Notes: generated by a model from the letters alone, not told the origin. A stretch of DNA of 64,000 nucleotides from Planctomycetota bacterium (GCA_004376375.1 SOJX01000009.1:17570-81569), one strand, 5' to 3'; positions 269-35,588 are shown, counted from the stretch's first letter. Numbers and translations: made by a program.

Positions 269-3200
269 ATGACCTTCATCAACGAAAACACTGTCGAGCA
301 GGCGACGCTGGATTATTTCCGAGCGCTCGGTTACGAAATCCTGTACGGGCCTGATATCGGACCGGGCGAACTGCACGCGGAACGGAACGATTGGGGCGAG
401 GTCGTCCTTGCCGGACGTTTGCGGTCCGCGCTTGAGCGTATCAACCCGGACATACCAGCCGATGCAATCGAGGACGCTATACGGAAGCTGCTTCGTACTG
501 AAAGCCCAAGCCTGTATGAGAACAACCACGCATTCCACAAGTTCCTGACCAATGGCGTGCCGGTCGAGTTCCACGCGGACGGCAGAATCAAGCACGATGA
601 TGTCAAGCTGGTAGATTTCAAGGATACTGGTAACAACGACTGGCTGGCCGTCAACCAGTTTACTGTCATCGAGGACAAGAGGAACCGCCGCCCCGATGTG
701 GTGGTATTTGTGAACGGTCTGCCGCTTGCCGTAATCGAACTCAAGAACCCGGCCGACGAGGAAGCCACGATAGAAAAGGCATACAACCAGCTTCAGACAT
801 ACAAAAACGACATACCGGGCCTCTTCCACTTCAACGAATGCCTTATTCTATCCGATGGCATGGAAGCCAGAGCGGGAACATTGACCTCCAACTGGGAATG
901 GTTTATGCCGTGGCGGACCGTCGAGGGCGACGACGTAGCGCCGAAAGGCTCGGTCGAGCTTTCCGTGCTGATAAACGGCATGTTCGAGAAGAGCCGCTTC
1001 CTCGACCTTGTGTGCAACTTCAACGTGTTCGAGGTGGATGGCTCCAGCATTGTCAAGAAAATGGCGGGCTATCACCAGTACCACGCCGTCAATAAGGCTA
1101 TCGAATGCACGGTAAAGGCGTCGTCGCCGAAAGGTGATAAACGTATAGGCGTTGTATGGCATACACAGGGGAGCGGCAAAAGCCTGTCAATGGCGTTCTA
1201 CGCGGGCAAGATTATCCAGCATCCCGCAATGGAGAACCCGACGCTGGTAGTAATAACGGACAGGAACGACCTCGACGAGCAATTACACGGTACGTTCTGC
1301 GACTGCCACGAACTGCTGAGACAAGAGCCGGTGCAGGCGGAATCACGCGACCATGTACGCGAGCTTCTGAAAGTCGCCTCCGGTGGCGTCGTATTCACTA
1401 CGGCGCAGAAATTCTTCCCGGATGAGAAAGGCGACCCGCACCCGCTATTGTCCGACAGGCGGAATATTGTTGTCATCGCGGACGAAGCGCACCGCAGCCA
1501 GTACGGTTTCATAAAGGGTTTTGCAAAGCATATCCGGGAAGCGTTACCGAACGCCTCGTTTATCGGCTTCACGGGAACACCGATTGAATCCACGGACAGG
1601 AGCACCCCGGCTGTCTTTGGCGATTACATAGACATATACGATATCGAACGCGCGGTACTGGACGGGGCCACGGTCAAGATTTTCTACACGGGACGGCTTG
1701 CACGAATCGAGATTGACGAGGCGGAACGCCCGCATATCGACCCGGACTTCGAGGAAGTGACCGAAAGCGAAGAAGCGGAAAAGAAGGAGAAGCTGAAGTC
1801 CAAATGGTCACAGCTTGAGAAAGTCGTCGGTACGCAGAAGCGTATCAACCTGATTGCGGAAGATATTGTAAATCACTTCGACGACCGCCTGTCCGTCATG
1901 GACGGAAAGGGCATGATTGTCTGCATGAGCCGCCGGATATGCGTTGACTTGTATAATGCGATAATAAAACTGTGCCCGGAGTGGCATGACGGGGACGATA
2001 AGAAGGGTTATATCAAAGTCGTGATAACCGGCTCCGCGTCCGATCCGGCAGACTGGCAGCAACATGTCCGCAATAAGATGCGACGAAAAGCGCTGGCCAA
2101 GCGGTTCAAGGACGAGAAAGACTCGATGAAGCTGGTCATCGTCTGTGACATGTGGCTTACCGGCTTTGACGTGCCGTGCCTCCATACGATGTACGTTGAC
2201 AAACCGATGCGCGGTCATGGGCTAATGCAGGCTATAGCGAGAGTAAACCGCGTATTCAGGGACAAGCCGGGTGGCCTTGTCGTGGATTATATCGGCCTTG
2301 CCGACCAGTTGAAGAAGGCGATGCACGAGTACACCGAGAGCGGCGGCAAGGGTGAAACGACGATTGACCAGGAGCAGGTCGTCGCCGTGCTGCTGGAGAA
2401 ATACGAAATCATCAAGGCCATGTTCCACGGGTTCGACTACTCGGTATACTTCCGCGCAAAGGAAACCGCCCAGATGCAGGTTATGGCGAACGCGATACAG
2501 CACATACTGGAAATTGACGAAGGTAAGAACCGCCTCATATCTGCGGTGACTGATATGTCACATGCGTTTGCGCTTTCCGTTCCGCATGATAAAGCGCTTG
2601 CTATACGGGACGAGGTCGGATTCTTTCAGGCGGTAAAGGCCGCCATAATGAAGCGGCTTGTCACCGGCGGAACGCCGCAGGCAAAACTTGACGCAGCAAT
2701 TCGGCAGATAATATCAAAGGCCGTGGTGTCGGATGAGGTTGTGGATATCTTCGACGCCGTGGGGCTGAAGAAGCCAGACATTTCTATATTGTCCGACGAA
2801 TTCCTTGAGGAAGTAAAACATTTACCGCAGAAGACCCTTGCCGTAGAACTCCTGAACCGGTTGCTGAAGGACGAGGTGAAATCCCGGCGCAGGAAAAACG
2901 TCGTGCAGGCGCGGTCGTTTACCGAGCTTCTGGAAAAGACGATACTGCGCTACCAGAACCGGACGATAGAGACTGCCAAAGTCATCGAGGAGCTTATTGG
3001 TCTTGCAAAGGATATGCGGGAAGCGCACAAACGCGGTGGAAAGCTGGGCCTGAAAGAGGATGAGCTTGCGTTTTACGACGCGCTTGAGGTGAACGACAGC
3101 GCCGTCATGGAACTTGGGGACGATGTGCTGAAAACCATCGCCCGCGAACTTGTACAGACCATCCGCGATAACTGGGCGATTGACTGGACCATGAAGGAAA

Positions 3201-3334
3201 ACGTCCGCGCTAAGATGCGCTCGATGGTGAAACGCTTGCTCCGTAAATACAAATACCCGCCGGACAAGCAGGAGAAAGCGACGCAGACCGTGCTCGAACA
3301 GGCGGAACTCCTATGCAAAGACCTAGCGGCGTAA
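269..3334 (+). CDS. hsdR: Type I restriction enzyme R (restriction/translocase) subunit
   Basis: 1021 aa. N-terminal nuclease motif D-x-ELK ([20 protein letters not shown]). Walker A TQGSGKS and DEAH box [10 protein letters not shown]. Helicase motif VI region QAIARVNR. Long C-terminal helical region typical of HsdR. Confidence 0.9.
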
Positions 3335-3604: not shown

Positions 3605-4792
3605 ATGGACTATGTCAATGGCGTCTTCAAAAAAGAAAGGGACTACATTGAGAATGGGACGACGCTTCTCATCTTTCAGTTAGCGTGTCGGGAGGCACTG
3701 CGCCACGATCTAGTAGGAACGGTCGCATTCAAGCAAGGACTATATAGGTTTGTTCCGGATTGGAAAGACAGAGGAGATAAAGCCTACGAGGCACGCAAGA
3801 ACCGCATACTAGGGCTTTTCCAAGCGTGTTTCGGGAGCGTCGACAAGAACGTGGTAAAGCGAGCCGCCAAGATGCTTGCGGATACAATTGGCTACTGCGG
3901 CGGCCACTTTGACGGATGGGCCTTGGCTGAAAGACTCATCAGCCCCAAAGCACTACGGGAATGCCTCGATGCCGTTTTCTCAGAGGAACCGATCTCCGAG
4001 GTAAAGATACTTCTTCGCAAGCATCGCGGAAAGGTAAGAGGATTCACCTTGGCCGGTTTTTCCGAGCTATGTTACCTGTGTCGCGACGACCTGTTTCCTG
4101 TCATCAACAGGCGTGTGACAATCCCGAAGGCATTGCTGAGGCAACTGAAAAGGAAGTGCTTTATCTCCCAAAACAATTATCAGGGCTATCCATACTTAGC
4201 TGAAGTATTGGAAGGATTCCTGGACGAACTCAGATTTCCCAAGGGACGCGACCAGCATAGGTTTGGATATGTTGACCGCTATTTCAGACACAGAGATAAT
4301 GACCGTACCGTAAGGGCATCTGCCAGGAAAGCGTTCTACAAAGAGCTCGCTAAATTCGTTGATAGCCTTCCTGATCGTCCGCCAGCCGTACGTATCGCCA
4401 GAACCATCTGCCCTACTGACCTAGAGATTGAAGGAGGTACAAACCTAGCCACGCATCGTAGGAAAGAGCGAAAATCAGCGAACCGTCAAGCATATCTGAA
4501 CGCCACAAGTAACCCATACCGCTGCAAGATCTGCCACGTTGACCTTGCCGAGGAATATAGCCTAGAAGACGACTACGGCGTGATTGAAGTGCACCACAAG
4601 AGGTTGTTGAAATCTGTTCACAAACCGAATCTTGATGAACTAGTCGGGCTGTGTCCGAATTGCCATGTAATGCTACACAGACACATAGCTGCGTACCTGA
4701 GAAAGAAAGGGCGCAAGGATTTCGCGAGCAAGAAAGAGGCGTTCAAGGTGCACGATGAATTCGTAGGTCACTGTCAGAGGCTATGGCGATGA
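3605..4792 (+). CDS. HNH endonuclease domain protein (unknown N-terminal region, C-terminal HNH)
   Basis: 395 aa. C-terminus CKICHVDL...VIEVHHKRLLKS...CPNCHVMLH matches the CxxC...HH...N...CxxC...H HNH zinc-finger nuclease signature. Confidence 0.7.
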   Translation: MDYVNGVFKKERDYIENGTTLLIFQLACREALRHDLVGTVAFKQGLYRFVPDWKDRGDKAYEARKNRILGLFQACFGSVDKNVVKRAAKMLADTIGYCGGHFDGWALAERLISPKALRECLDAVFSEEPISEVKILLRKHRGKVRGFTLAGFSELCYLCRDDLFPVINRRVTIPKALLRQLKRKCFISQNNYQGYPYLAEVLEGFLDELRFPKGRDQHRFGYVDRYFRHRDNDRTVRASARKAFYKELAKFVDSLPDRPPAVRIARTICPTDLEIEGGTNLATHRRKERKSANRQAYLNATSNPYRCKICHVDLAEEYSLEDDYGVIEVHHKRLLKSVHKPNLDELVGLCPNCHVMLHRHIAAYLRKKGRKDFASKKEAFKVHDEFVGHCQRLWR

Positions 4793-4815
4793 CTCCAGGT
4801 TTATTCCGGATTTCG

Positions 4816-4842
4816 GGGCACCGACCGCAATATGCGGTGCCC
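4816..4842 (+). terminator. GC-rich hairpin downstream of the HNH gene (8-bp stem GGGCACCG / CGGTGCCC, 11-nt loop) with no clear U-tract
   Basis: Inverted repeat seen directly after the stop at 4792. The absent T-run weakens a terminator assignment. Confidence 0.3.
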
Positions 4843-5191
4843 TATCGCCTTCCGTTCCCCCCTCCCGGGCGGCTTGCTCTCTGCCTTCGGTTAGAGCCGT
4901 TGCGGATAAACATTTTCAGGCCTTAGCCGTCTGGACTGAAACTGACTGACCAGACCATATCTCCGTGCCAGCGGAGTGTGGGCAACTCATTTCCTGTTTG
5001 ACATCGTCCTGTGCCAGTGGTTGGCTGCATCGCTAAGAACTTAAGCGACCTTGAAAATATTTACGTTCCACGTAAAAAAGGCTGGACGTTAGTTTAAAAT
5101 CAACATATGATAGAAGGTTGATAACATGTAGTTTTCCTGGAAGAAACGGGGAAGACCTTTCTTTTATATCCAATAAAGTCTGTAGGAGACG

Positions 5192-7555
5192 ATGATGGGC
5201 GATTTATTCGTGCTTATCATTATCATCGTATTTATTGTTGGTATAGTAAAAATTATACAATTTGTACTGGCATTAAAAGAAAAAGCCAAATCTGTCTTTA
5301 CCAAATCACGACATCGTCACCGTTCAGGAATATCAATCGAATTAGGCTCTGGCAGTACACGGGCCAGATTCAGGAATAGACAAGTCAGTCGCCCAATTAA
5401 GTCCGACATGAGATGGATTGGGCTAAATGACGAAATCACTATTCGAACATACAAGATTAACGACCCGCTTACTTATGTTTCTAAATCAAAACCACCGTCC
5501 TCTCACGAATGGATTTCATATGGCGATTTTGAAGAAGATGAAGCATCGTGCATATATACTTCCCTTAAAGTGGGCAGACCTGTTTATGAACCTCCAGGTG
5601 CACTAGGATACTGGCCCAAATACGCCCAGATTTCAGCGGACCAACGGGCAAACTACCTGAGATGGCTAGCCAATGGCAGAAATGACGAACTTGAAGACAT
5701 CGGTTATGCTTTTATATTCTTCTATGGCCTTGAACGGCGTTTATTGGTTGAGAAAAAAGATTTTAGAATCATTATGGGTGAAGTTGTCAGACTGCTGGAT
5801 CGATATACCCATTCTGGTTCGTTCACCGGCTATTTGGCCAGATTTCTTACCTACGTTGCTGCTAAGTATGGACTTGACAAGATTGATGATCCGCTTTTCT
5901 GGATCATTTTTGAAAAATCTCCTGCGCGACGTACAGAAGAAGGTCTTTCGGTGGCGCTTGCATGGATGCATATACATGGTCATCCATTAAGCACAAGTTG
6001 GGCAATGGATGTTGCCCGCATGGACCCCCGGTCTCCGAGAAGCGTTGTAACAAAACGAATCCCAGGCGAATTTAAGAAACTTTTTGATATCAAGTACAAG
6101 GAAAAATATGGCAAAGGATTAGTATTAAAAGCTTCAAAGATTGAGAGGAAACTTGAATATCATCCGGCAAGTCCTTCCCTTGGGACTCTACATAGCGACT
6201 ACGACGATGAATCCGCTGTAATTCAACCTATTCGCATTCCGAATATTATGGGTATTCAAAGCCAATTTAAGGAGTTGGTAGAAATCTGGACTGAGTGTAT
6301 CGACGAGTTGAAACCTCTTGCTCGTAAAGTCGGCAAGGGGATGGATGTTGATACACGGGAAGCCTTTGAAGCCCTTCCAGATGACCTGAGAAAAGAATTG
6401 GATCACCCCGATCACGACAAATGGGAACACCTTGCTCAGGCTAACATGCGCGAGGATGGTGTGGTCTTATTGAGTGTTTCCGACTTGGCAAAGTTGAAAG
6501 AAATTGGCAAACGGGATCGATTGACCAAGAAGCAAGGTGAAAGTATTGCAGAAACAGCCGAGTACATTGGATATGTAATTGAACCTGATATTAGATTAAC
6601 TAATCGCACATATAAATGGGATGATAAAGTCTGCCTGTTGAGGCCGGATATACCTGATAAAATCCTGGATTGCCCTCGATATCTAGGTTCCGCTATAATA
6701 CTTGAATTGGGAATGGCAATTGCGGCGGCAGATGGCGTGATTGAAGATGAGGAGGTTTCACATATAGTAAGTTTTCTGGAAGGGCGGTTTATGCTGGATA
6801 CCAACGAGGAACAGAGAATAAAGGCGTTGAAAGAAGTACTGGTTGCGTCACCTCCTTCCATGAATGGTGTTGCGAGACGATTGCAGAAGGCACTGAAGCC
6901 GGATCAGCTGGAAAAGGTCGGGACATTCCTTGTTGGTGTCGCAGCTGCTGACGGTATTATTGACAAAAATGAGATAAATATACTTAAGAAAGCTTATAAG
7001 GCGTTAGGCCTAACCAATGACAAGCTGAATGAAGTTCTTGATTCCATTGTTATAGCTCCTGATGCACCTGTGGAGGTTCAGCGCGGCAGGAAACGTGACC
7101 GAAAGGGTGAGCTAATCCCTGCACGGAAGGAGAAAGAAGAATTTATAGAAGTAATATTGGATGAAAACAGGATACGTGAAATTCTTGAGGATACCAGAGA
7201 GGTATCGGATATATTGAGCGCTGTCTTCCAAGAAGAGGATTTTGGATTGCCAGAGGGGCAGGAAAATGCTGCTCAGGAACCGGCTCAATGTTTAGAACCA
7301 GCGACAGATCCTCGTTTTGAGGATCTTGATTCCAGATTCCACTCTTTCCTGTGTGAAGTACTTACGAAGGAAGAGTGGGATAGTGATGAATTCACAAATC
7401 TCGCCCGTTCTTATAATCTTATGCCTTCGGGAGCAATTGAGAAAATCAATGAATGGGCTGAGCAAAAATATGACGATCTTCTAATGGAAGAAAGCGATAA
7501 GATTTATATCAACAAGGATATTCTGCCGGAGCACGAAAATGTCAAACAAAATTAG
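5192..7555 (+). CDS. Membrane-anchored protein with two TerB-like repeats (TerB-N/TerB-C type architecture suspected)
   Basis: 787 aa. N-terminal TM helix LFVLIIIIVFIVGIVKIIQFVLAL. Two internal repeats with the TerB signature A(A)ADG-I-x-E (LGMAIAAADGVIEDEEVSHIV and LVGVAAADGIIDKNEINILKKAY). RBS GGAG 8 nt upstream. GC about 41%, lower than its flanks. Confidence 0.6.
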   Translation: MMGDLFVLIIIIVFIVGIVKIIQFVLALKEKAKSVFTKSRHRHRSGISIELGSGSTRARFRNRQVSRPIKSDMRWIGLNDEITIRTYKINDPLTYVSKSKPPSSHEWISYGDFEEDEASCIYTSLKVGRPVYEPPGALGYWPKYAQISADQRANYLRWLANGRNDELEDIGYAFIFFYGLERRLLVEKKDFRIIMGEVVRLLDRYTHSGSFTGYLARFLTYVAAKYGLDKIDDPLFWIIFEKSPARRTEEGLSVALAWMHIHGHPLSTSWAMDVARMDPRSPRSVVTKRIPGEFKKLFDIKYKEKYGKGLVLKASKIERKLEYHPASPSLGTLHSDYDDESAVIQPIRIPNIMGIQSQFKELVEIWTECIDELKPLARKVGKGMDVDTREAFEALPDDLRKELDHPDHDKWEHLAQANMREDGVVLLSVSDLAKLKEIGKRDRLTKKQGESIAETAEYIGYVIEPDIRLTNRTYKWDDKVCLLRPDIPDKILDCPRYLGSAIILELGMAIAAADGVIEDEEVSHIVSFLEGRFMLDTNEEQRIKALKEVLVASPPSMNGVARRLQKALKPDQLEKVGTFLVGVAAADGIIDKNEINILKKAYKALGLTNDKLNEVLDSIVIAPDAPVEVQRGRKRDRKGELIPARKEKEEFIEVILDENRIREILEDTREVSDILSAVFQEEDFGLPEGQENAAQEPAQCLEPATDPRFEDLDSRFHSFLCEVLTKEEWDSDEFTNLARSYNLMPSGAIEKINEWAEQKYDDLLMEESDKIYINKDILPEHENVKQN

Positions 7556-8861
7556 GCGCAGAGAGCGCACCGCTATTATCCAATCGCTGCAGGCCGGTGT
7601 CGTACCGAGGGTCGGGCTGCAACACATCCAGGTCGGGAGGCTAGAGGAAGTTGAAGCAGTATTGCGCGATCTTGAAAACATAAAGGAAGGCGGAGCTTCT
7701 ATAAGATTTATAATCGGACGTTTTGGATCGGGTAAAAGCTTTTTTCTGAACCTTGCAAGAATCGTTGCCCTTGAGCAGAAATTCGTTGTCGTTCAGGCAG
7801 ATATCACACTTGAGCGCAGACTTCATGCTTCCGATGGCAAAGCCAGGAATCTTTACTCTGAGCTAATGCAGAATATGGCAACCCGCTCTAAACCAGCTGG
7901 AGGAGCACTGGCAAGTGTAATTGAAAGATGGGTTTCAGATATTGATTATTCTGTTAGGGACTCTGGAGGAGATGAAGAAGATGTTTCTGATGCTATTCAT
8001 GAGAAGCTGAAGCCGCTTCAGGAGTATGTCAGTGGCTACGATTTTGCTGAGGTTATCTCAAGATATGTTGAAGGATTCCATAAAAGTGACGATCAACTGG
8101 TAAGTTCCGCGATTCGCTGGCTTAAAGGTGAATATGGGACTAAAACCGAGGCCAGGCAAGATTTGGGTGTCCGATCAGTAATTACGGATAAGAATATCTA
8201 TGATTACTTAAAGCTTATGGGCAGATTTATCCAGCTTGCTGGATATAACGGCCTGCTTGTGAACATTGATGAAATGGGGGTCTTGTCACACAGGCTAAAT
8301 CATTCAACCTCAAGAAATAACAACTACGAAAAGCTACTGGCTATTGTGAATGATTGTCTTCAGGGTAACGTAACAGGCATTGGATTTATTTTTGCCGGGA
8401 CGGATGCTTTCCTTGAAGACAAAAGACGCGGTCTTTACTCCTATGAAGCTCTGGCAACCAGACTTGCCGAAAATACTTTTGCCGTAGATGGATTGAAGGA
8501 TTTCTCCAGCCCCATTATAAGACTTGAAAACCTTTCACCTGAAGACTTATTTGTGCTGCTCTGTAATATTCGAAGTGTTTTTGCATCTGATGATTCCGGG
8601 AAACACATAGTTCCTGATGATGCATTAAAAGCCTTTATGCAGCATTGCTCAAATACTTTGGGAGCGGCTTTTTATAGAACTCCAAGGGACACCGTCAAAT
8701 CATTTGTCGGACTGCTTTCTGTACTTGAGCAGAATCCTGGAGCTGACTGGAGAAACCTTCTCAAAGGAGTAACGATCAAAAGTGATCCGACCCCTGAGTC
8801 CGGGGAAAATACTTGTCCAACCGACGGTGATTCCGACGATTTGGCAAAATTCCAACTGTAA
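7539..8861 (+). CDS. P-loop ATPase, BrxD/DUF2791-like
   Basis: 440 aa. Walker A GRFGSGKS and Walker B LLVNIDEMG. Overlaps the upstream gene by 17 nt. Size and partnership with an Lhr-like helicase resemble BREX BrxD. Confidence 0.6.
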   Translation: MSNKIRRRERTAIIQSLQAGVVPRVGLQHIQVGRLEEVEAVLRDLENIKEGGASIRFIIGRFGSGKSFFLNLARIVALEQKFVVVQADITLERRLHASDGKARNLYSELMQNMATRSKPAGGALASVIERWVSDIDYSVRDSGGDEEDVSDAIHEKLKPLQEYVSGYDFAEVISRYVEGFHKSDDQLVSSAIRWLKGEYGTKTEARQDLGVRSVITDKNIYDYLKLMGRFIQLAGYNGLLVNIDEMGVLSHRLNHSTSRNNNYEKLLAIVNDCLQGNVTGIGFIFAGTDAFLEDKRRGLYSYEALATRLAENTFAVDGLKDFSSPIIRLENLSPEDLFVLLCNIRSVFASDDSGKHIVPDDALKAFMQHCSNTLGAAFYRTPRDTVKSFVGLLSVLEQNPGADWRNLLKGVTIKSDPTPESGENTCPTDGDSDDLAKFQL

Positions 8862-8870
8862 ATCACAATA

Positions 8871-11078
8871 ATGGACCATAACGAGGACATTCCGGCTTTC
8901 GAACTTCTCAATCCTAAGATACAGGAACAGCTCTATAAAATGAGATGGGAGGAGTTGCACCCCATCCAGGTCGATGCGATTAAGGAAGTTATTCTCGGCA
9001 ACAATCACATTGTAATCTCCTCGCGGACGGCAGGAGGAAAAACCGAAGCAGCGTTTCTTCCCATTCTCTCAAAATTAATTGACAGGAAAGAATCGGGAAT
9101 TGGCGCGGTTTATGTCGGTCCGCTTAAGGCATTGATTAACGACCAGTTCATGAGGCTTGAAGAACTTTGCAGAAGAACTGAAATCGCGGTTCATAAATGG
9201 CACGGTGATGTAACGGCATCCAAGAAGCGAGCACTGTTAAAGAATCCGTCGGGAGTCCTTCTCATAACTCCTGAATCTATCGAATCCATTTTTATCAATA
9301 AATCCCAGCACCTTCATAAGTTTTTTTCAAACTTGCCGTATATTGTTATTGATGAATTGCATTCTTTTATCGGAACCGAAAGAGGCGCTCATCTTCAGAG
9401 CCTATTGGCCAGAATAAACCAGGTAAATAAGAAACAGCCAAAACTGATCGGGCTCTCCGCGACTCTCGGTGATGTTGAGTTGGCTGGAAAGTGGATGTGC
9501 AAGCCGGTTGAAGGTTGCGCAATCTCAATTTCCGACGCAAGTGAAACTAAAACAGTTCATTATCTTGTCCAGGGTTATCTCAGGATCAAGGAGAAATTGA
9601 CGAAACTTGGGCACAATGAATATGCGAATCATGAAGGCACGGGAAATGCGGCTGATATGAATCTGACGGAAGATATTATTAAATCTTTCGCCAATCGAAC
9701 ATCACTTATTTTCGGAAACAGTAAGTCTTACCTAGAGGAAAAAGCTGACCTGGTCAACCGGATAATGCAAAGAAGGAAGCTTCCGAATTCCTTTGGAATA
9801 CATCACGGCTCACTCGGCAAGATTCAGAGGGAAGAAACTGAAGAAGAACTCAAGTCGAACAGACCGATCAGCGTTTTTTGCTCAAGTACGCTTGAAATGG
9901 GAATAGATGTCGGTGATGTTTCCATTGTAGGGCAACTCGGGCCTCCCTGGTCCGTGAACTCGCTGATTCAGAGACTTGGCCGGAGCGGTCGCAAAGATGA
10001 TGATCCCCAGGTAATGAGGGTATTTATTGAAGAGCTTGAAGCTAGGGATAGCTCATCGATATTACAACGCCTTCATCGTGGCCTGCTTCAAACGGTCGCA
10101 ATGAGTGAACTCATGCTGCAAAAATGGTGCGAACCTCCAGAAATTGATCGTCTGCACCTGTCAACAATGGTTCATCAGATATTGAGCATCATTGCTGAGA
10201 AAGGAGGCACTTATGCAAACCAGCTGTTCGAATCTCTAATTGCCAGAGGAACTTTTTCCAATGTTGACAAGAAAAGCTACAAATCAGTTTTGAAATCACT
10301 CGGAGAAAAAGACGTTATCGAACAAACACCTGAAAAATTACTAATATTGGGACTAAACGGTGAGAGAATTGTCAGAAACTTTGAATTCTATGCCGCCTTT
10401 AAGACTCCCGAAGAATTTAGTGTAATACACAGAGAAAAGACAATAGGTACAATCGTACCAGACCCTTCATTGGAAATAGGCAGCTACCTCATTCTTGCCG
10501 CCAGACGTTGGCAAGTTACAGACATTATTCCAAAACGGAAACAAGTTTTTGTAATGCCCGCAAAAGGTAAAAAATTGCCAATATTTGGAGGAGGATTAGG
10601 ACCTGACGTGCACCCATTTGTTCGAATGAAGATGTATGATATGTTGTTCGATGATAACGTACCCAGATACCTGAACCAAAAAGCAGCGGAACTCCTATTA
10701 GCTTCAAGAGTTTCCGCCAATGAAGCTATGCTTGACGTCGAACAATTCATAAAAGAAGGCAAAGATACGATCTGGTTCACCTGGACGGGAAGTAGAATAA
10801 ACAGAACATTAATGGCTCTCGGCAGTTATTTTTCTGGAATGAATGTTGATGATGAAGGCATTGCTTTGGTTTTTAAAGGGGTATCAGAAAGCGAAATAAA
10901 GGCAGCATATAAATCGTTTTTGCATCAGCATCCGACTCGATTTGAAATAGCAATGAAGTTTCCTGTTCTTGATTTTGAAAAATTTGACGAACTGCTTTCT
11001 AAAGAACTAACGGCAAAAGCCTTTGCTAAAAACTATCTCAACCTTTCTGGTGCTTTAGAGGTAATCAAGAAACTATAA
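8871..11078 (+). CDS. Lhr-like DEAD/DEAH-box SF2 helicase
   Basis: 735 aa. Q motif LHPIQ, motif I SSRTAGGKTEAAF, motif II VIDELHSF, motif III SATLG, motif VI QRLGRSGRKD. Starts 10 nt after the ATPase gene. Confidence 0.8.
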   Translation: MDHNEDIPAFELLNPKIQEQLYKMRWEELHPIQVDAIKEVILGNNHIVISSRTAGGKTEAAFLPILSKLIDRKESGIGAVYVGPLKALINDQFMRLEELCRRTEIAVHKWHGDVTASKKRALLKNPSGVLLITPESIESIFINKSQHLHKFFSNLPYIVIDELHSFIGTERGAHLQSLLARINQVNKKQPKLIGLSATLGDVELAGKWMCKPVEGCAISISDASETKTVHYLVQGYLRIKEKLTKLGHNEYANHEGTGNAADMNLTEDIIKSFANRTSLIFGNSKSYLEEKADLVNRIMQRRKLPNSFGIHHGSLGKIQREETEEELKSNRPISVFCSSTLEMGIDVGDVSIVGQLGPPWSVNSLIQRLGRSGRKDDDPQVMRVFIEELEARDSSSILQRLHRGLLQTVAMSELMLQKWCEPPEIDRLHLSTMVHQILSIIAEKGGTYANQLFESLIARGTFSNVDKKSYKSVLKSLGEKDVIEQTPEKLLILGLNGERIVRNFEFYAAFKTPEEFSVIHREKTIGTIVPDPSLEIGSYLILAARRWQVTDIIPKRKQVFVMPAKGKKLPIFGGGLGPDVHPFVRMKMYDMLFDDNVPRYLNQKAAELLLASRVSANEAMLDVEQFIKEGKDTIWFTWTGSRINRTLMALGSYFSGMNVDDEGIALVFKGVSESEIKAAYKSFLHQHPTRFEIAMKFPVLDFEKFDELLSKELTAKAFAKNYLNLSGALEVIKKL

Positions 11079-11518
11079 GCTATTCTGAAGTATATTAACG
11101 CCAAATGAATCCTAAAATGGTACTCTTAACCTATGCTGCAGGTCTAATGGCTCCATCAATATCCCAGGCCTTCGAGGCCAATGATTCCTTGAGTTTTATT
11201 ATCATATTGCCATCATAGTATCACGTCAATATCTCGGCTGCGGCTCGGAGTTGCCCCCATGTCAGCGGCCTTCTCAGGTAATTCATAACCGAGCTTTCAT
11301 TGCCCAAGCCAAGGTCATAGGACTTCAAAAAATCATACCATTGTCGCAATGTTTCCAGGGCTTGATGTTGCGGCAATATTGGACATGGTTCCGGAGAGCA
11401 GTGGGCGGCCTTTTCGGTGCTTGCGAGCATGACACGGTCAAGTAGAGTCCACCAGGAGTCCGCAGCTACCCGCCTCCAGTGTCTTTCCGCTACACCGTGA
11501 TTCCTTCCTTGCGGTCAA

Positions 11519-12775
11519 CTATGTAGGAAGCAGGAACACCTCGGTGCTTGCTCCCATCGTCGCCACAATCGGAGGACGTTCGTCCTCAATAGACTCTTCA
11601 CTAGGCTTGCTTATGTGAACGTTTAGCAGACGCAACCGTTGATCTGGATGCAGATCAAATCGGAGATTTAAGGTTCGCAACAGAATGGGGCCGCCGGCCT
11701 TCAAGTCTGATGGGGATTGCACCACACCGTCCCAACTGCTGGGTCCGTGTTGACCTGAAAGCTTGATCTGAAGGTCGGCAAACCGACCCTTCGAGGGGTC
11801 TCTGTCTTCGCCCTGGCGGCGGGCATTCCACTGCCAATACTCCTCGCACAGGTGTCGTACGGCGCAGTACTTACAGTTCTCTGCACTTGGTCGCGCCTCA
11901 GGCGGATCAGCCCGGAGATCAGCAAGTGCTGCCGCGGTTCGCTCCTTGAGTTCATCCTCCAGAGAGCGAAGTGCACTGGCCCCTGGGACCGGCACCTCGA
12001 CGTCGCTCTCGTCGTATGAAAGCACGAGTTTGTCTGCAAGTCGGCCCGAGGGGTTCAGATCGCGATCCCGGGCCCAGAGCAGTGCGTACGTCCGAAGTTG
12101 GAACTTGTGCTCCTCCTTCGGAGTCCCAGTCTTGAAGTCTCGGATCTCGCACCAGGTTGGTGAAAGCGTGAGCAAGTCCGCGACACCAAGCCACCCCAAT
12201 TCGGATGCCTGGAGTTCGACCTCTGTATGAGAGCCATGCTGTAGCTCATACCGGAATTCCGCCTCCGGGTGCGTGGTGGGACACCCGGGCCTAGCAACAC
12301 GAGACTCGGGATGAATGCGAGACAAGAACCTCTGAACCCGTGAACGAAGTTCTGGAACTCGGGCAGCAAGCTGATGGCGAATCCCGTCAAGGACTGGAGC
12401 CGCTCGTGGATTTCCGTCGTATGATCGAAGCGCACGTTCCAGGCTACTCCGAATGATTGCCGTATAGCCGCCGAGTTCTCTTAGCGTGCAGATCGCGCTT
12501 TCGTCTACCAACGAGGTGCATCCGCATTCTACAAGAGCCTTCGTGATTTTCTGTAGGGCCAAATGAACGACCGTTCCTTCAAGCGCTGCTGATTGTGGTG
12601 GACGAGGGTACCCGCGGTGTTTCCATACGTCTGGATACACCGCGGTGCTCAGCGCCCACCGTCTCGGACAAGCCTCCAAATCCGAAAGCGTGGAGAAGGA
12701 CATCCACAGCGGTGCTTCGGACCACGCCGATGGGCATGACACGTGCCAAATACTCGTGCTGCTGTTTCCAGACAT
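11519..12775 (-). CDS. Cas4/RecB-family PD-(D/E)xK nuclease with predicted Fe-S cluster
   Basis: 418 aa. RecB-nuclease motifs GVADLL (motif II) and EIRDFKTG (motif III), plus QLRTYALL (QxxxY). N-terminal Cys (EACPRRW) plus C-terminal CKYCAVRHLC (CxxCx5C) gives the four-Cys Cas4 pattern. Starts 5 nt after the upstream helicase gene. Confidence 0.8.
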   Translation of the reverse strand: MSGNSSTSIWHVSCPSAWSEAPLWMSFSTLSDLEACPRRWALSTAVYPDVWKHRGYPRPPQSAALEGTVVHLALQKITKALVECGCTSLVDESAICTLRELGGYTAIIRSSLERALRSYDGNPRAAPVLDGIRHQLAARVPELRSRVQRFLSRIHPESRVARPGCPTTHPEAEFRYELQHGSHTEVELQASELGWLGVADLLTLSPTWCEIRDFKTGTPKEEHKFQLRTYALLWARDRDLNPSGRLADKLVLSYDESDVEVPVPGASALRSLEDELKERTAAALADLRADPPEARPSAENCKYCAVRHLCEEYWQWNARRQGEDRDPSKGRFADLQIKLSGQHGPSSWDGVVQSPSDLKAGGPILLRTLNLRFDLHPDQRLRLLNVHISKPSEESIEDERPPIVATMGASTEVFLLPT

Positions 12776-12780
12776 CGCAC

Positions 12781-15700
12781 CTACCCGATCTGCGAGATAA
12801 GATCGCTCGTTGCCTTCGGCAGGTTTCTCCGTATGACTAATTCGTCACAGAGTAACACTGGGATTGAAAGACAGAACTCTTTGAGGTTTCTGAGTGCATC
12901 GTCAGGAGGATCGTCAGGCGTGAGGGGTCCATAGATGCCGATGATGAATTCGGAGTTGTCGGCTCGCTTCACATAGATGGGAGCGGTTACTGTGCCAAAC
13001 CCAGACAACGTGAGAACCCGATTCCGTTCAATAGTCACTCCTTCAAGGTTCTGCCGACGGAGGTCCTGAAAGAGCAATTCGGTAGACGCGGTAAGCCGCG
13101 CGGAATCCAGGGTGGGATAGGCCCCATGAATTAGGAATCGCAGAAGACTCGCGCCAACGTGGCGATCCAGCAGATCGTGCTCGAACTTGTTTTTGTAACT
13201 CCGCAAGCAACGATAGCAGGAGCGATCACAATTCTCTAGGCAATTTTCGAGAATACGTAGAGCTTCCTCAAAAACCGCTTCGCCCAAGTCACCGACACGG
13301 CGCACGAAACCGGCACCACCTGGGAGCGTGTCGTAGATGTAGATCTCCGCCTCGCGTCCCTCCCGGCCTGCCTCCGTCAGCGCTGGCCGGTATTCGGCCT
13401 GCAGTTCTTGCGCTTCCAGCCCAAGCAGACCGCACCCCGCCTTCGTCAGCGCCTCAGCGACCGTTCTCAACGCCACGTCGGTAGCGAGAAGGCCAGATGC
13501 CAGCATCACGGGCGCTTCGACCCGAAGAGAAATCAGCAGCACATCGGTGATGAAGTCCGTGCCAAGCACGAGGCCTTTGGTCGCCCGACCCCCTGCACAG
13601 TTCGGATCTCGATCATCTGGGTACGGCTTCGGGTGGGCTGCAGCGACGGTTCCCTTCGGTGCCGCCGTAGGCTCGATGCGGCCGCAGCGCGTGCAGTAGG
13701 TGTAGCCTTCCTGACGCGGCCCTCGGTTGGTTACGAGCAGGTGCTGCCGCATGTGGTGGAGACGTATCCTGTCGTTGATATCGCTCCACTCGTCTGGGTC
13801 AGCCGGGGTCGACGCCGTTAGCTTGGCGCGAGTAGCGTAGCTTCGCGCTGGCTGGTCGTCGGGGGTTGTGCCCTCGTCGCGATCCACTGGGTGCGCGAAC
13901 CCGGGTGGACGCATCCAATAGCGCGCCGGACCGAAGGTACCCTCGCTCCCGCACGCCTCGCAGTCACGGGACTCCCCGCGAGTGCCTTCGCCGAGCGGCA
14001 AAGTGCGTGCGTACCTGCAATAATTGCACTCATAATAGAGGCGACGGCGCTGCCACGCGTTGAAACGGTCGTCTTTCATCGGGGAATAGATAGCGCCCGA
14101 TGTCCACAGCTTGCTTGCGATCCACACCTCCTTCCCCGGCGCGTACTGCGACAACGCTACGGGCAGCCCTTGGGACGGCGTGAAACGGAAAGCGGGGCGG
14201 GACCACTTGCTCGCATCGGGGTCGAAGACGTGGAAGGTTGCCACATCGGTCGGAAAGGCATACCGTGGAAGCACTCCCTTGTAGAGGAGACGGTCCAACA
14301 GATTTCCTGACGCAGGATTTCGCCCTGGCCGCTCCTCTCCCACTTCGTCGCTAATCTCCAGGGCCGTTGCCTCCTCACCTTTGGAACTGTCATCAGCCTT
14401 GTCATTCTCGGAGGCCCCTGCATCATCGAGATTTGTTCCTTCCGCGGGCTGGTAGTCGATGGCGGCATCGATTGCCGCCATCGTGTCGTCGACGATTCCA
14501 TCGAGCAGCAAGTCGCGATCCTTTGAAGTGATCTCGGATGGGAGCCACCCAGACACGTCCGCCTTCAGCGCTTCGGCGTTAGACGCAAGCCACTTCGCGA
14601 GGCCCTGCCTGTTCAGAATTGTATCTTCCCTCTTGAAGTCGGACACCGTACCTAACACGGCGAAGAGATGAAGTTGATCTTCCGGAGCGATGTCCGGCAA
14701 TCTCCACTGATGGTAGCGCTGGAGGAGGTACGCCGTGAGGTGGCGACGGATAATATCCAGGTTGTCGAGCGTTAACCTGGGATCAACAACATCTCCGCTG
14801 ATCATTTCATCCGGGTGCGTGAAGTAATGTTCATCATGGCTGTCGGCACTGCCAAACGCGGTGACGGTCGCGACTGCGTTCCCCCGCCGTCCAGCTCGAC
14901 CTGCTCGTTGCTGGTAGTTCGCTCGCGCCGGTGGCATGTTACGTAGCGAAACACCGGTCAATGAGCCAATGTCGATGCCCACTTCCATCGTTGTGGTACA
15001 CGAGAGTACGTCGATAGCCGGGCGATCCTGACCCTTCTCATCGGGACCAAGGTCGATGTCCTGGAACAGCAATTCATGCTCCTCGGCTTTCGAGAAAACC
15101 TCCTCGGCTTGGGCCGCATTGAGTTGAGCAGTATGCTCTGCTGCAATCAAGGCCATCGGAGGCGTCGGCGGGTCCTCCAAAGCGCAAATCGTGCTCGCCC
15201 GGTAATACCCTTTGCGAGCTGCGAATACGGAGTCCGTATCGGGGTCGATTAATATAGCGGAGTCATGTCCGCAGTTCACACAGCGATTGCTGCCAGGGAA
15301 TGGCCGCTGCGTTGTTCGACAGGCCTGACAGTACGCCCAGTCATCGCCAATTAGAAGGGAGAGTTCCCCGCCCTTGAGGCGGCGCTTGTTGGCAGGCATC
15401 GGCTCGGTGAAGAGTTGCAGCAGAGTCGGAAGCCAACTCTTTTCGAAGACCTTCCGGGCGGCCTTCTCGACCAAGCGCCGCTCCATCTTACGGAAACTGC
15501 CTGAACGTGACTTGACTTCATTCAGCCACCAGCCATGGGGCATCCGGCTGAGCCAGAAGCCTGCGCGCTGCCAGCACCGCAGCCATGCGCGGGCAAGCGC
15601 GAGCTTCTGCTCCGTCGTGGTAGCTACATCAGGTACGTCGGGAAGGGCTTGGATCGCGGGCGAGTGTGCAACTCGCTCGACGATTGATGCGAGCGCGAGA

Positions 15701-18339: not shown

Positions 18340-18373
18340 CCGAAACCTCCTTTTGACACTTCCGCTTCGCGCC

Positions 18374-19459
18374 TCAACTTATTTCCGTGAGCCATGCGTA
18401 TTCCTTAAGGAAGCGGACCTCCTCGTCAATCTCGTTTTCTCTAAGCCTATAGGAGAACAGGCATCCTGAAGACAAGATGGGGACTCCGACAACATTCCAT
18501 TTCCTCCTCACCCACATCGGAAGAGGTGAGAAGAAGTCGACTACCTCCGTGCCATTGGGCCCGGGCCGAACTCTGAAGATCTGGGGAGTTCCTTGCTCAT
18601 AGTCGATGGCTGCCTGTATTCTCCAGGCCTCGTCACATCCTCGCCAGGTATTGCTCTTCAGCGGAAGATCCACAAACCTGATGGGGTTACCGTCCTTGAC
18701 CTTAACATAACACCAGAGATCCGCCCCATAGGCTTGCGCACGACGGCCAACAAACCGCCCGGTATGGGTTGTCGATTCGACCCAGCGACCTCGGTAGTAT
18801 CGAACGGATCGTCCTGGGTCAAGCAGTACCAACCCTGGAACGTCTCCACCTACCGGTGCGGCATCCAGTAAGCGATTCATTCGCCCAAGATACTCGGCGG
18901 CGGCTTCCGCTTTCGGAGCTTTCAACCATGCGCTGCTCGACAGTTCAATCCAGCCCAACTCTCCCAATTGATCTGCGAACTTTGTTCCTGCGTTGGGTGG
19001 CAGTACTCGAATGTGGTTTATATACTCGACACATTCCACGACTTCGTCAGGGAGTAGAGATACGTCGTCGGGCAGGATCCCCAAGATGACAACCGCGCCA
19101 CTTTGACGTCGCACAAAAGCTGGTGGAGCGAGGTACAGGAGGGCTTTGCACCCGCTACTTTCCTCCTGGCTCGTGTCCGTCAGCTCGAGGAGGTCTCCAT
19201 GCCCGACAAGTGCTTCAAGCGTATCCTCGACCGTCCGTTGTAACTCGTCCAGGTCATCGACCAAGCTCCGAAGAGGTTCAACGACCGCATGGATGAGGGT
19301 ACGAGCAGAACACGGGCACAGGAACCCTGCGGCACGCCGGAGGCAACACGAAACTGCTTCCACGCTGCTGAGATCCAAAGCACTAGGATCGAGGCCCAAC
19401 GCCTCAACCGATGCCTGGTGAACCTCCGCTGTCGATAGAGCTTTCATTCCCATGCCCAC
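18374..19459 (-). CDS. hypothetical protein (third gene of the five-gene operon; DruD-like by position and size only)
   Basis: 361-aa ORF. Tight operon spacing: 16-nt overlap upstream and 34-nt gap downstream. No recognisable motif. Confidence 0.5.
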   Translation of the reverse strand: MGMGMKALSTAEVHQASVEALGLDPSALDLSSVEAVSCCLRRAAGFLCPCSARTLIHAVVEPLRSLVDDLDELQRTVEDTLEALVGHGDLLELTDTSQEESSGCKALLYLAPPAFVRRQSGAVVILGILPDDVSLLPDEVVECVEYINHIRVLPPNAGTKFADQLGELGWIELSSSAWLKAPKAEAAAEYLGRMNRLLDAAPVGGDVPGLVLLDPGRSVRYYRGRWVESTTHTGRFVGRRAQAYGADLWCYVKVKDGNPIRFVDLPLKSNTWRGCDEAWRIQAAIDYEQGTPQIFRVRPGPNGTEVVDFFSPLPMWVRRKWNVVGVPILSSGCLFSYRLRENEIDEEVRFLKEYAWLTEIS

Positions 19460-35540: not shown

Positions 35541-35588
35541 GTGTCAACTGTATTGACACATTACGGTCTGTGTCAATGTAGTTTACAC
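35541..35588. promoter_or_regulatory. two tandem palindromic candidate enhancer (UAS) sites GTGTCAA-N5-TTGACAC and GTGTCAA-N5-TTTACAC
   Basis: Perfect 7-bp IR at 35541-35559 and a one-mismatch copy at 35570-35588. Centres 29 bp apart. 100-150 bp upstream of the sigma-54 promoter and directly beside the sigma-54 activator gene. Confidence 0.45.

What the first reader, a model, noticed from the sequence alone, without database searches (positions are those of the whole stretch)
5192..11078. Low-GC three-gene operon: TerB-repeat membrane protein + BrxD-like ATPase + Lhr-like helicase
Three tightly coupled genes (17-nt overlap, then 10-nt gap) at about 41% GC sit inside a roughly 55-60% GC background. 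The first encodes a TM-anchored protein with two TerB-type AADG(I/V)I repeats. The second is a 440-aa P-loop ATPase of BrxD size. The third is an Lhr/BrxHI-like DEAH helicase. TerB-N/TerB-C proteins partnered with DUF2791 ATPases and DUF1998/Lhr helicases have been proposed as a DNA-processing conflict system, and BrxD plus BrxHI are BREX accessory components. Seeing this triad in what looks like a defence island fits that picture. A membrane-tethered version is unusual. No role for such a triad has been demonstrated.
Basis: partly seen in the sequence, partly recalled or inferred. Interest (0 to 1): 0.7.

Follow-up and report, generated by a model that had tools for sequence, protein, structure and literature searches.

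The report
Shango anti-phage defence operon (SngABC)
The three genes are a complete copy of Shango, an anti-phage defence system named and tested in 2022-2023, sitting in a defence island of a Planctomycetota genome, so the locus is real but ordinary.

Summary
The three ORFs exist exactly as described: 5192-7555, 7539-8861 and 8871-11078 on the + strand, with a 17-nt overlap and then a 9-nt gap. Their GC is 42-44%, against 54-60% in the neighbouring genes. Gene 1 has TerB_N, TerB and TerB_C. Gene 2 is a BrxC_BrxD/DUF2791 ATPase. Gene 3 is an Lhr/BrxHI-like DExH helicase.

PADLOC identifies the triad end to end as SngA, SngB and SngC (E 5e-67, 3e-169, 4e-231). This is the Shango system, shown to restrict phages in E. 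coli (Millman 2022) and Pseudomonas aeruginosa (Johnson 2023). The claim that no role has been demonstrated is therefore out of date.

The membrane anchor is not unusual. About two-thirds of SngA homologues carry an N-terminal hydrophobic helix, including copies on Klebsiella IncF plasmids. DUF1998 is absent from SngC and sits in the DruE gene next door. The A-B-C order is kept in every homologous locus long enough to judge, across bacterial phyla and methanogenic archaea. No fourth gene is conserved with it. The flanks hold a type I restriction subunit and a Druantia type I operon.

The mechanism of Shango is still unknown. This is a new, divergent member of a known kind, and interest is low.

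The parts
5083..5111 (+). Candidate sigma-70-like promoter (TGGACG-17-TATGAT) in the AT-rich stretch upstream of sngA. Weak evidence only.
   Evidence: It matches 9 of 12 positions, and the scan as a whole found no more sites than in shuffled sequence. The sequence was read.
5192..7555 (+). sngA, 787 aa. A second in-frame ATG at 5195 has better spacing to the AGGAG at 5184-5188. The product is a TerB_N-TerB-TerB_C protein with an N-terminal membrane anchor.
   Evidence: ORF. Pfam TerB_N 2.4e-31, TerB 3e-15, TerB_C 7.4e-24. PADLOC SngA 5.2e-67 over residues 55-785. The AF2 model has mean pLDDT 81.
5195..5293 (+). Codons 2-34 of sngA: a single N-terminal hydrophobic helix followed by a K/R-rich flank (KEKAKSVFTKSRHRHR). 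Predicted to be a membrane anchor with the rest of the protein in the cytoplasm.
   Evidence: Kyte-Doolittle 19-residue mean of 3.08. AF2 helix 2-34, followed by a disordered linker at 36-70. The topology is inferred from the positive-inside rule.
5432..6040 (+). TerB_N domain (PF13208), residues 81-283. AF2 shows one continuous, confidently folded region from about residue 71 to 490.
6707..7027 (+). TerB domain (PF05099), residues 506-612. It holds the duplicated AADG(V/I)I motifs. D514/E521 and E594 are invariant among 30 homologues.
7148..7531 (+). TerB_C domain (PF15615), residues 653-780. The AF2 secondary-structure order at 714-773 is H-E-H-H-E-E, which resembles a winged helix.
   Evidence: The only structural support for a wHTH is a weak Foldseek hit (4pzj, probability 0.54), so this is a hint only.
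7539..8861 (+). sngB, 440 aa. A BrxC_BrxD (DUF2791) AAA+ ATPase that overlaps the end of sngA by 17 nt.
   Evidence: Pfam PF10923 2.3e-148. PADLOC SngB 2.6e-169, against BrxD 9.2e-50. NCBIfam BrxD scores 167.5, below the 350 cutoff. Walker A has K66; Walker B is D244-E245.
8871..11078 (+). sngC, 735 aa. An SF2 DExH helicase of the SngC/BrxHI/Lhr kind.
   Evidence: Pfam DEAD 2.1e-33 and Helicase_C 8.1e-17. PADLOC SngC 4.1e-231 over residues 9-734, and BrxHI 1.9e-124. A profile search of the PDB gives Lhr 5v9x as best hit at 4.8e-60, then MrfA/YprA. Motifs K57, D161-E162-H164, SAT196 and QRLGRSGR367 are invariant in 30 homologues.

Best explanation
The locus is an intact Shango anti-phage defence operon, sngA-sngB-sngC, carried as a self-contained module of foreign composition inside a defence island of a Planctomycetota genome.

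Shown here: the identity of all three proteins, their intact catalytic motifs, the conserved gene order, and the defence context.

Inferred mechanism, none of it tested:
1. SngA is held in the inner membrane by its single N-terminal helix. Its TerB_N, metal-binding-type TerB and TerB_C domains lie in the cytoplasm, where it acts as sensor or scaffold.
2. SngB is an ORC/Cdc6-type AAA+ ATPase paralogous to BrxD. It uses ATP to load or activate SngC.
3. SngC is an Lhr/BrxHI-type DExH helicase or translocase. It engages phage DNA or replication intermediates near the membrane and blocks replication.
4. This is direct interference rather than cell suicide. In some lineages an AddAB-like nuclease-helicase is attached or adjacent.
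For: Identity:
- PADLOC SngA, SngB and SngC score 5e-67, 3e-169 and 4e-231 with near full-length coverage, each above the BREX paralogue profiles.
- Pfam finds TerB_N, TerB and TerB_C; BrxC_BrxD; and DEAD plus Helicase_C.
- The ATPase and helicase motifs are intact and invariant across homologues.

Synteny: all 69 homologous genome loci with enough sequence keep the A-B-C order on one strand. They span Planctomycetota, Verrucomicrobiota, Armatimonadota, Myxococcota, Desulfobacterota, Bacteroidota, Firmicutes and Methanomicrobiales. No flanking gene family recurs in more than 4 loci.

Context:
- Type I HsdR lies upstream, and DruA, DruD and DruE lie downstream.
- Plasmid copies sit next to type I RM or AbiE.
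- SngB homologues occur on 690 plasmids, mostly conjugative, and the three inspected carry the full triad.

Function:
- Experimental anti-phage activity has been published.

Mechanistic leads:
- BrxD has been described as an ORC/Cdc6 AAA+ ATPase proposed to load BrxHI, and the two form a tightly linked dyad.
- SngC, BrxHI, DruE and DpdJ form one SF2 clade.
- The membrane anchor is present in about two-thirds of homologues.
- SngC is fused to an AddB-like PD-(D/E)XK part in two Kofleriaceae loci, and is followed by AddB-like and UvrD-like genes in a Sulfitobacter plasmid.
Against: - This copy has not been tested. Its nearest non-identical SngA relative is only 49% identical.
- No step of the mechanism has been demonstrated for any Shango system, and the literature up to 2025 calls the role of TerB unclear.
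- No nuclease or other obvious effector domain is present in the three proteins.
- The AddB-like association occurs in only 3 of 85 loci.
- The transmembrane prediction rests on hydrophobicity and AF2, not on a dedicated topology predictor.
- About one-third of homologues show no such helix, although some of these are truncated or have wrongly called starts.
Confidence: 0.9

Rival explanations
1. Shango acts by abortive infection. The membrane-anchored TerB protein perturbs the membrane or ion balance once the ATPase-helicase pair senses phage DNA, and this kills or arrests the cell.
For: - No nuclease effector is visible in the three proteins.
- TerB proteins have been linked to the membrane, and 'membrane surveillance' has been suggested for TerB-containing systems.
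- The TerB-containing Dionysus system pairs TerB with a pore-forming toxin.
- SngA has a membrane anchor.
Against: [quoted passage not shown]
- SngA has one transmembrane helix and no pore-forming domain.
- The rare extra partners are AddB-like nuclease and UvrD-like helicase genes, which point to DNA as the target.
Confidence: 0.12
2. The ATPase and helicase are the BrxD and BrxHI accessory pair of a BREX system, of type 2 or 6, or a remnant of one. The TerB gene is an unrelated neighbour.
For: BrxD and BrxHI profiles give significant hits (9e-50 and 2e-124). BrxD and BrxHI form a linked dyad in BREX.
Against: - The SngB and SngC profiles score far higher: 562 against 168 bits, and 768 against 414 bits.
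- The NCBIfam BrxD equivalog scores 167.5, below its 350 cutoff.
- None of the ORFs scanned with Pfam or PADLOC matches PglZ, PglX, BrxC or PglW.
- The TerB gene overlaps the ATPase gene by 17 nt, and it precedes the ATPase and helicase genes in all 69 loci long enough to hold the full triad.
Confidence: 0.02
3. The operon is a housekeeping stress-response or DNA-repair module, of the Ter-type metal stress or Lhr-type repair kind, and not an immune system.
For: The TerB domain comes from the tellurite-resistance family. The closest solved helicases are the repair helicases Lhr and MrfA.
Against: - There are no terZ/A/C/D/E genes or ligase/MPE partners nearby.
- All NCBIfam repair-helicase equivalogs fall far below cutoff, for example 196.7 against 850.
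- GC is atypical of the flanks, the flanks vary between genomes, and many copies are on plasmids.
- Neighbours are RM, Druantia and AbiE.
- Anti-phage phenotypes have been published.
Confidence: 0.03

Closest known systems
Shango (SngA/SngB/SngC), as in Pseudomonas aeruginosa PA14 (PA14_RS11735-45) and E. coli; Millman et al. 2022 and Johnson et al. 2023
   Same: - Same three proteins, same order, and full-length matches to all three PADLOC profiles.
- Same domain set: TerB-like protein, ATPase and DEAD/DEAH helicase.
- Same defence-island habitat.
- The Klebsiella pKPN3 plasmid copy has the same architecture, including the N-terminal hydrophobic helix.
   Different: - It is divergent. Identity to the Klebsiella pKPN3 plasmid copy, the enterobacterial reference available here, is 26% for SngA, 52% for SngB and 37% for SngC.
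- The host is an uncultured Planctomycetota bacterium.
- This copy is untested.
BrxD + BrxHI dyad of type 2 (Pgl) BREX
   Same: - The ATPase family is homologous (PF10923, ORC/Cdc6-type AAA+).
- The helicase is homologous over its full length (BrxHI profile positions 4-689 of 698).
- The two genes are tightly linked.
- It probably works in the same way, as a loader or activator plus a DNA helicase.
   Different: - No PglZ, PglX, BrxC or PglW is present, so there is no methylation-based self/non-self module.
- The partner is instead a membrane-anchored TerB protein.
- The pair scores better with the Sng profiles, and the BrxD equivalog cutoff is not met.
Lhr-core / MrfA (YprA) DNA-repair helicases
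   Same: These are the closest solved structures to the SngC helicase core: 5v9x at 4.8e-60 and 6znp at 3.5e-48. There is a weak match in the region after the core and a weak Pfam WH_Lhr hit.
   Different: - SngC has no MZB/DUF1998 zinc domain.
- It lacks the long Lhr C-terminal half.
- All NCBIfam equivalog cutoffs are missed by a wide margin.
- The genomic partners are different.
Other TerB-containing defence systems (Bunzi BnzA, Dionysus DinB) and the ter tellurite-resistance operon
   Same: They share the TerB domain. They also share a link to the membrane that is either suspected or predicted.
   Different: Bunzi and Dionysus lack the ATPase-helicase pair, and Dionysus uses a pore-forming toxin. 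The ter operon has TerZ/A/C/D/E partners, which are absent here.

Membership tests
Shango defence system | SngA: a protein with TerB_N and TerB_C (plus TerB) that matches the SngA profile | tested here: met
   Pfam TerB_N 2.4e-31, TerB 3e-15 and TerB_C 7.4e-24. PADLOC SngA 5.2e-67, residues 55-785 against profile positions 24-527 of 528.
Shango defence system | SngB: a DUF2791/BrxC_BrxD-type ATPase with an intact P-loop | tested here: met
   PF10923 2.3e-148. PADLOC SngB 2.6e-169, residues 2-439 against profile positions 3-438 of 439. Walker A GRFGSGKS and Walker B LLVNIDE are present.
Shango defence system | SngC: an SF2 DEAD/DEAH helicase that matches the SngC profile, with intact motifs | tested here: met
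   PADLOC SngC 4.1e-231, residues 9-734 against profile positions 5-719 of 720. Motifs I, II (DELH), III (SAT) and VI are present and invariant in 30 homologues.
Shango defence system | The three genes are adjacent and co-oriented as one operon | tested here: met
   There is a 17-nt overlap and a 9-nt gap. The same order is found in all 69 homologous loci long enough to show it.
Shango defence system | Protects against phage when expressed | not testable with these tools
   Shown for the P. aeruginosa PA14 and E. coli systems only. This copy is untested.
BREX (type 2/6) accessory pair BrxD-BrxHI | Presence of the BREX core genes (PglZ, PglX methyltransferase, BrxC; PglW in type 2) in the same locus | tested here: not met
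   None of the ORFs scanned, which span 269-58621, gave such a hit in Pfam. PADLOC, run on the flanking ORFs up to 28.4 kb, gave none either.
BREX (type 2/6) accessory pair BrxD-BrxHI | The ATPase reaches the NCBIfam BrxD equivalog cutoff | tested here: not met
   NF033438 scores 167.5 bits against a cutoff of 350. In PADLOC, BrxD scores 168 bits against 562 for SngB.
Lhr / ligase-associated DExH repair helicases | Reaches the family equivalog score, and has the Lhr winged-helix domain | tested here: not met
   TIGR04121 scores 196.7 against 850, PRK13767 184.5 against 849, and PRK09751 96.7 against 1496. Pfam WH_Lhr scores 14.5 against 27. The core helicase is nonetheless closest to Lhr among solved structures.
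DUF1998/MZB helicases (MrfA, DruE type) | C-terminal MrfA Zn-binding domain, PF09369 | tested here: not met
   SngC gives no PF09369 hit at E up to 0.1. The domain is present in the neighbouring DruE at residues 1628-1712.
ter tellurite-resistance / Ter stress-response operon | TerB together with TerZ/TerA/TerC/TerD/TerE genes | tested here: not met
   The TerB domain is present, but none of the ORFs scanned matches a TerC or TerD family.

The most novel reading that the evidence does not exclude
The N-terminal membrane anchor of SngA is a family-wide trait. It is found from Planctomycetota to Klebsiella IncF plasmids, yet the Shango papers read here do not discuss it. Shango would then be a membrane-sited DNA-surveillance machine. 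SngA would sit at the inner membrane and, on a signal tied to phage DNA entry, recruit the ORC-like SngB to load the Lhr-like SngC helicase onto incoming phage DNA. The DNA would then be handed to RecBCD/AddAB-type nucleases, as the rare SngC-AddB-like fusions hint.
Probability: 0.2. Interest if true: 0.55.

Novelty: new member of a known kind. Interest (0 to 1): 0.15.

Why it matters
For a genome scan the result is mainly a correct label. GenBank annotates the proteins as 'hypothetical protein', 'ATP-binding protein' and 'DEAD/DEAH box helicase'. They are in fact a Shango system, sitting in an island that also holds a type I restriction subunit and a Druantia operon.

The mechanism of Shango is unsolved, and three by-products of this check could help whoever studies it:
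- A single-pass membrane anchor on SngA is the majority state across phyla.
- The triad has no conserved fourth gene.
- In a few lineages SngC is fused to, or followed by, an AddAB-like nuclease-helicase.

None of these changes the verdict on this locus, which is an ordinary instance of a described system.

Tried and rejected
- Near-identical DNA for 4800-11500 was sought in 5,426 E. coli genomes and 72,556 plasmids. Nothing was found.
- SngB was searched by tblastn against 50,697 phage genomes. Nothing was found, so there is no sign of phage carriage.
- Island boundaries were examined. The window has no tRNA. There are no convincing flanking direct or inverted repeats. No integrase is adjacent. 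The boundaries are therefore defined by composition only.
- Promoter and terminator scans gave no more sites than shuffled sequence, so they are not evidence.
- SngA and SngB gave no hits by sequence against the PDB.
- A conserved fourth gene was sought in the flanks of 65 loci. None was found.
- 112 flanking ORFs from homologous loci were scanned with PADLOC. Scattered Mokosh, Gabija-like, DRT and Hachiman-like hits appeared, but the output gives no per-locus rate, so no enrichment figure is claimed.
- The window's PD-(D/E)XK gene (11519-12775) was tested as a possible Shango partner and rejected. It is on the opposite strand, 5 nt after druE, and has no specific similarity to the AddB-like genes linked to Shango elsewhere.
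- Anantharaman et al. 2012, the source of the TerB-N/TerB-C prediction, is not in the paper library. What is said about it comes from citations and from memory.
- The upstream orf395 was considered as a fourth component and rejected. It is absent from all other loci and has a different GC.

Full report
**Observation.** The first two overlap by 17 nt, and a GGAG lies 8 nt before the second ATG. The second and third are separated by 9 nt, not 10. Gene GC is 0.429, 0.442 and 0.424, with GC3 of 0.39-0.41. The neighbouring hsdR is 0.543 and druE is 0.603. The local contrast in composition is therefore real. The window as a whole is 50.5% GC and strongly mosaic, ranging from 38% to 62% in 2-kb bins. 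Other blocks, at 24-28 kb and 42-64 kb, are also at 43-50%. The '55-60% background' therefore describes the immediate neighbours, not the genome.

**What the proteins are.**
- Protein 1: Pfam gives TerB_N (residues 81-283, 2.4e-31), TerB (506-612, 3e-15) and TerB_C (653-780, 7.4e-24). The two AADG(V/I)I motifs, at residues 512 and 585, are the two halves of the one TerB domain.
- Protein 2: Pfam gives BrxC_BrxD/PF10923 over its whole length (2.3e-148). Walker A (GRFGSGKS) and Walker B (LLVNIDE) are intact.
- Protein 3: Pfam gives DEAD plus Helicase_C and a sub-threshold WH_Lhr hit. Helicase motifs I (TAGGKT), II (DELH), III (SAT) and VI (QRLGRSGR) are intact and invariant in an alignment of 30 homologues.
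- PF09369 (DUF1998/MZB) is not found in protein 3. It is in the DruE protein next door.

PADLOC's defence-system profiles identify the three proteins as SngA (5.2e-67), SngB (2.6e-169) and SngC (4.1e-231). Each match is essentially end to end, and each is well above the BrxD (9.2e-50) and BrxHI (1.9e-124) profiles. That triad is the Shango system.

**What is known about Shango.** Millman et al. named Shango as one of 21 new defence systems and noted its TerB domain. Johnson et al. cloned the PA14 operon, which encodes a TerB-like protein, an ATPase and a DEAD/DEAH helicase, into PAO1. They saw 10-100-fold reductions in plating for many phages. The mechanism is still open. A 2025 preprint states that it is unclear how TerB proteins confer protection. 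A helicase phylogeny places SngC with BrxHI, DruE and DpdJ in a defence-specific SF2 clade. A 2026 analysis of BREX describes BrxD as an ORC/Cdc6-type AAA+ ATPase. It describes BrxHI as a Ski2-like helicase with a wHTH, a beta-barrel and an Lhr-like C-terminal domain. The authors propose that BrxD loads or activates BrxHI.

**Source and relatives.** The same proteins are on record from a Planctomycetota MAG. They carry accessions TET39230-32 and are annotated as hypothetical, ATP-binding and DEAD/DEAH helicase. The same DNA occurs in GCA_030588815.1 and in one Logan assembly. The next-best SngA homologue is only 49% identical. Nearly all of the 120 listed homologues carry all three of TerB_N, TerB and TerB_C, so this is the standard architecture. 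A scan of one genome per species found more than 580 related loci. In all 69 of the 80 retrieved loci that are long enough, SngA, SngB and SngC follow one another on the same strand. These loci come from Planctomycetota, Verrucomicrobiota, Armatimonadota, Hydrogenedentota, Myxococcota, Desulfobacterota, Bacteroidota, Firmicutes and Methanomicrobiales archaea. No flanking gene family recurs in more than four loci, so the triad is a self-contained module with variable surroundings. SngB homologues are on 690 PLSDB plasmids, mostly conjugative Klebsiella and Salmonella plasmids. Klebsiella pKPN3 and plasmids of Cetobacterium and Sulfitobacter carry the full triad, the last two next to type I RM or AbiE genes. 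None is found in the phage genome collection.

**The membrane anchor.** SngA begins with a strongly hydrophobic stretch at residues 5-28, with a Kyte-Doolittle mean of 3.08, followed by a K/R-rich segment. AlphaFold2 models a helix at 2-34, then a disordered linker at 36-70, then the folded domains. By the positive-inside rule the bulk of the protein should be cytoplasmic, which is an inference. The feature is not unusual. A comparable N-terminal hydrophobic segment is present in 72 of 120 protein homologues. It is also present in 56 of 82 genome loci when the reading frame upstream of TerB_N is examined. All three plasmid copies have one, including the Klebsiella copy. These counts use a crude hydropathy threshold and include some truncated or mis-started sequences.

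**Context in the window.**
- Upstream lies a type I restriction R subunit (269-3334), followed by an ORF of 395 aa with no hit in any library.
- Downstream, on the other strand, lies a Druantia type I-like operon. Its genes are DruA, a 976-aa ORF with no hit, DruD, DruE and a Cas4-like PD-(D/E)XK gene.
- No tRNA, integrase or convincing terminal repeats mark the Shango block.
- None of the ORFs scanned matches a BREX core family or a ter gene other than TerB.

**How it most likely works.**
- Shown here: identity, intact motifs, conserved operon structure and defence context.
- From the literature: the anti-phage phenotype, and protection at many phage doses.
- Inferred: SngA is a membrane-anchored cytoplasmic sensor or scaffold. 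SngB, by analogy with the proposal for BrxD, is an oligomeric AAA+ loader or activator. SngC, by homology to Lhr and BrxHI, is a DNA helicase or translocase that acts on phage DNA or its replication intermediates.

None of the three proteins has a nuclease domain. Two Kofleriaceae loci have SngC fused to an AddB-like PD-(D/E)XK part about 1000 residues long, followed by a UvrD-like helicase. A Sulfitobacter plasmid has separate AddB-like and UvrD-like genes starting 3 nt after sngC. This points to DNA degradation as a possible end-point, but it concerns 3 of 85 loci. The main mechanistic rival is abortive infection through the membrane-anchored TerB protein. The published liquid-culture data argue against it. 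I put identity as Shango at about 0.9-0.95, and the specific mechanism at roughly 0.3.

**Verdict.** The system is already named and validated. The membrane anchor is typical of the family. DUF1998 is not present, and the triad is not a BREX accessory. This is a new, divergent member of a known kind, and interest is low.

Noticed in passing
window 11519-23561, - strand: A Druantia type I-like operon with an odd middle. It has DruA (22368-23561), DruD (18374-19459) and DruE (12781-18339). The DruB/DruC position is filled by a single 976-aa ORF (19444-22374) with no Pfam, PADLOC or NCBIfam hit. A Cas4-like PD-(D/E)XK gene (11519-12775, weak DruK match) follows DruE by 5 nt.
   Followed up: partly
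window 3605-4792, + strand: A 395-aa ORF between the type I HsdR gene and Shango has no hit in Pfam, PADLOC or NCBIfam. Its GC of 0.50 is intermediate. It accompanies Shango only in the identical contigs L001 and L002, and in none of the 80 related genome loci.
   Followed up: partly
window 24000-28500: A second low-GC block (43-46%) lies next to Druantia. Its ORFs (24870-26264, 26284-26934, 26958-28421, all on the - strand) have no family hits apart from a weak HSDR_N_2 match. They may be further uncharacterised defence genes.
   Followed up: no
window 35588-40921, - strand: A giant 1777-aa signalling protein combines a Ser/Thr kinase, an AAA_16 STAND-type ATPase, TPR repeats, GAF and a sigma-54 activator domain.
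   Followed up: no
window 43500-64000: A polysaccharide or O-antigen-type biosynthesis cluster at 38-50% GC. It includes DegT aminotransferases, several glycosyltransferases, an FkbM methyltransferase, a Wzm/Wzt ABC exporter and an NDP-sugar dehydratase.
   Followed up: no
L042:12356-20016 and L078:12366-20035 (Kofleriaceae MAGs); L084:6311-11302 (Sulfitobacter faviae plasmid): A Shango variant. In the two Kofleriaceae loci SngC is fused to an AddB-like C-terminal part of about 1000 residues with a PD-(D/E)XK domain, followed by a UvrD-like helicase. On the Sulfitobacter plasmid, separate AddB-like (884 aa) and UvrD-like genes start 3 nt after sngC. This is seen in only 3 of 85 loci, but it is a possible clue to the missing effector.
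   Followed up: partly
L085:3676-9497 (Klebsiella pneumoniae MGH 78578 plasmid pKPN3) and 689 other PLSDB plasmids: SngB homologues are on 690 plasmids (449 Klebsiella, 144 Salmonella; 541 predicted conjugative). On pKPN3 a full Shango triad lies about 1.4 kb from the IncFII repA gene. No SngB homologue was found in 50,697 phage genomes.
   Followed up: partly
L062 and L064 (Geobacteraceae / Trichlorobacter thiogenes), about 10893-11867: In these two loci about 970 nt separate sngA from sngB, where other loci show an overlap or a short gap. The stretch has stop codons in the frame tested, so it may hold an inserted small gene or a degenerate region.
   Followed up: no
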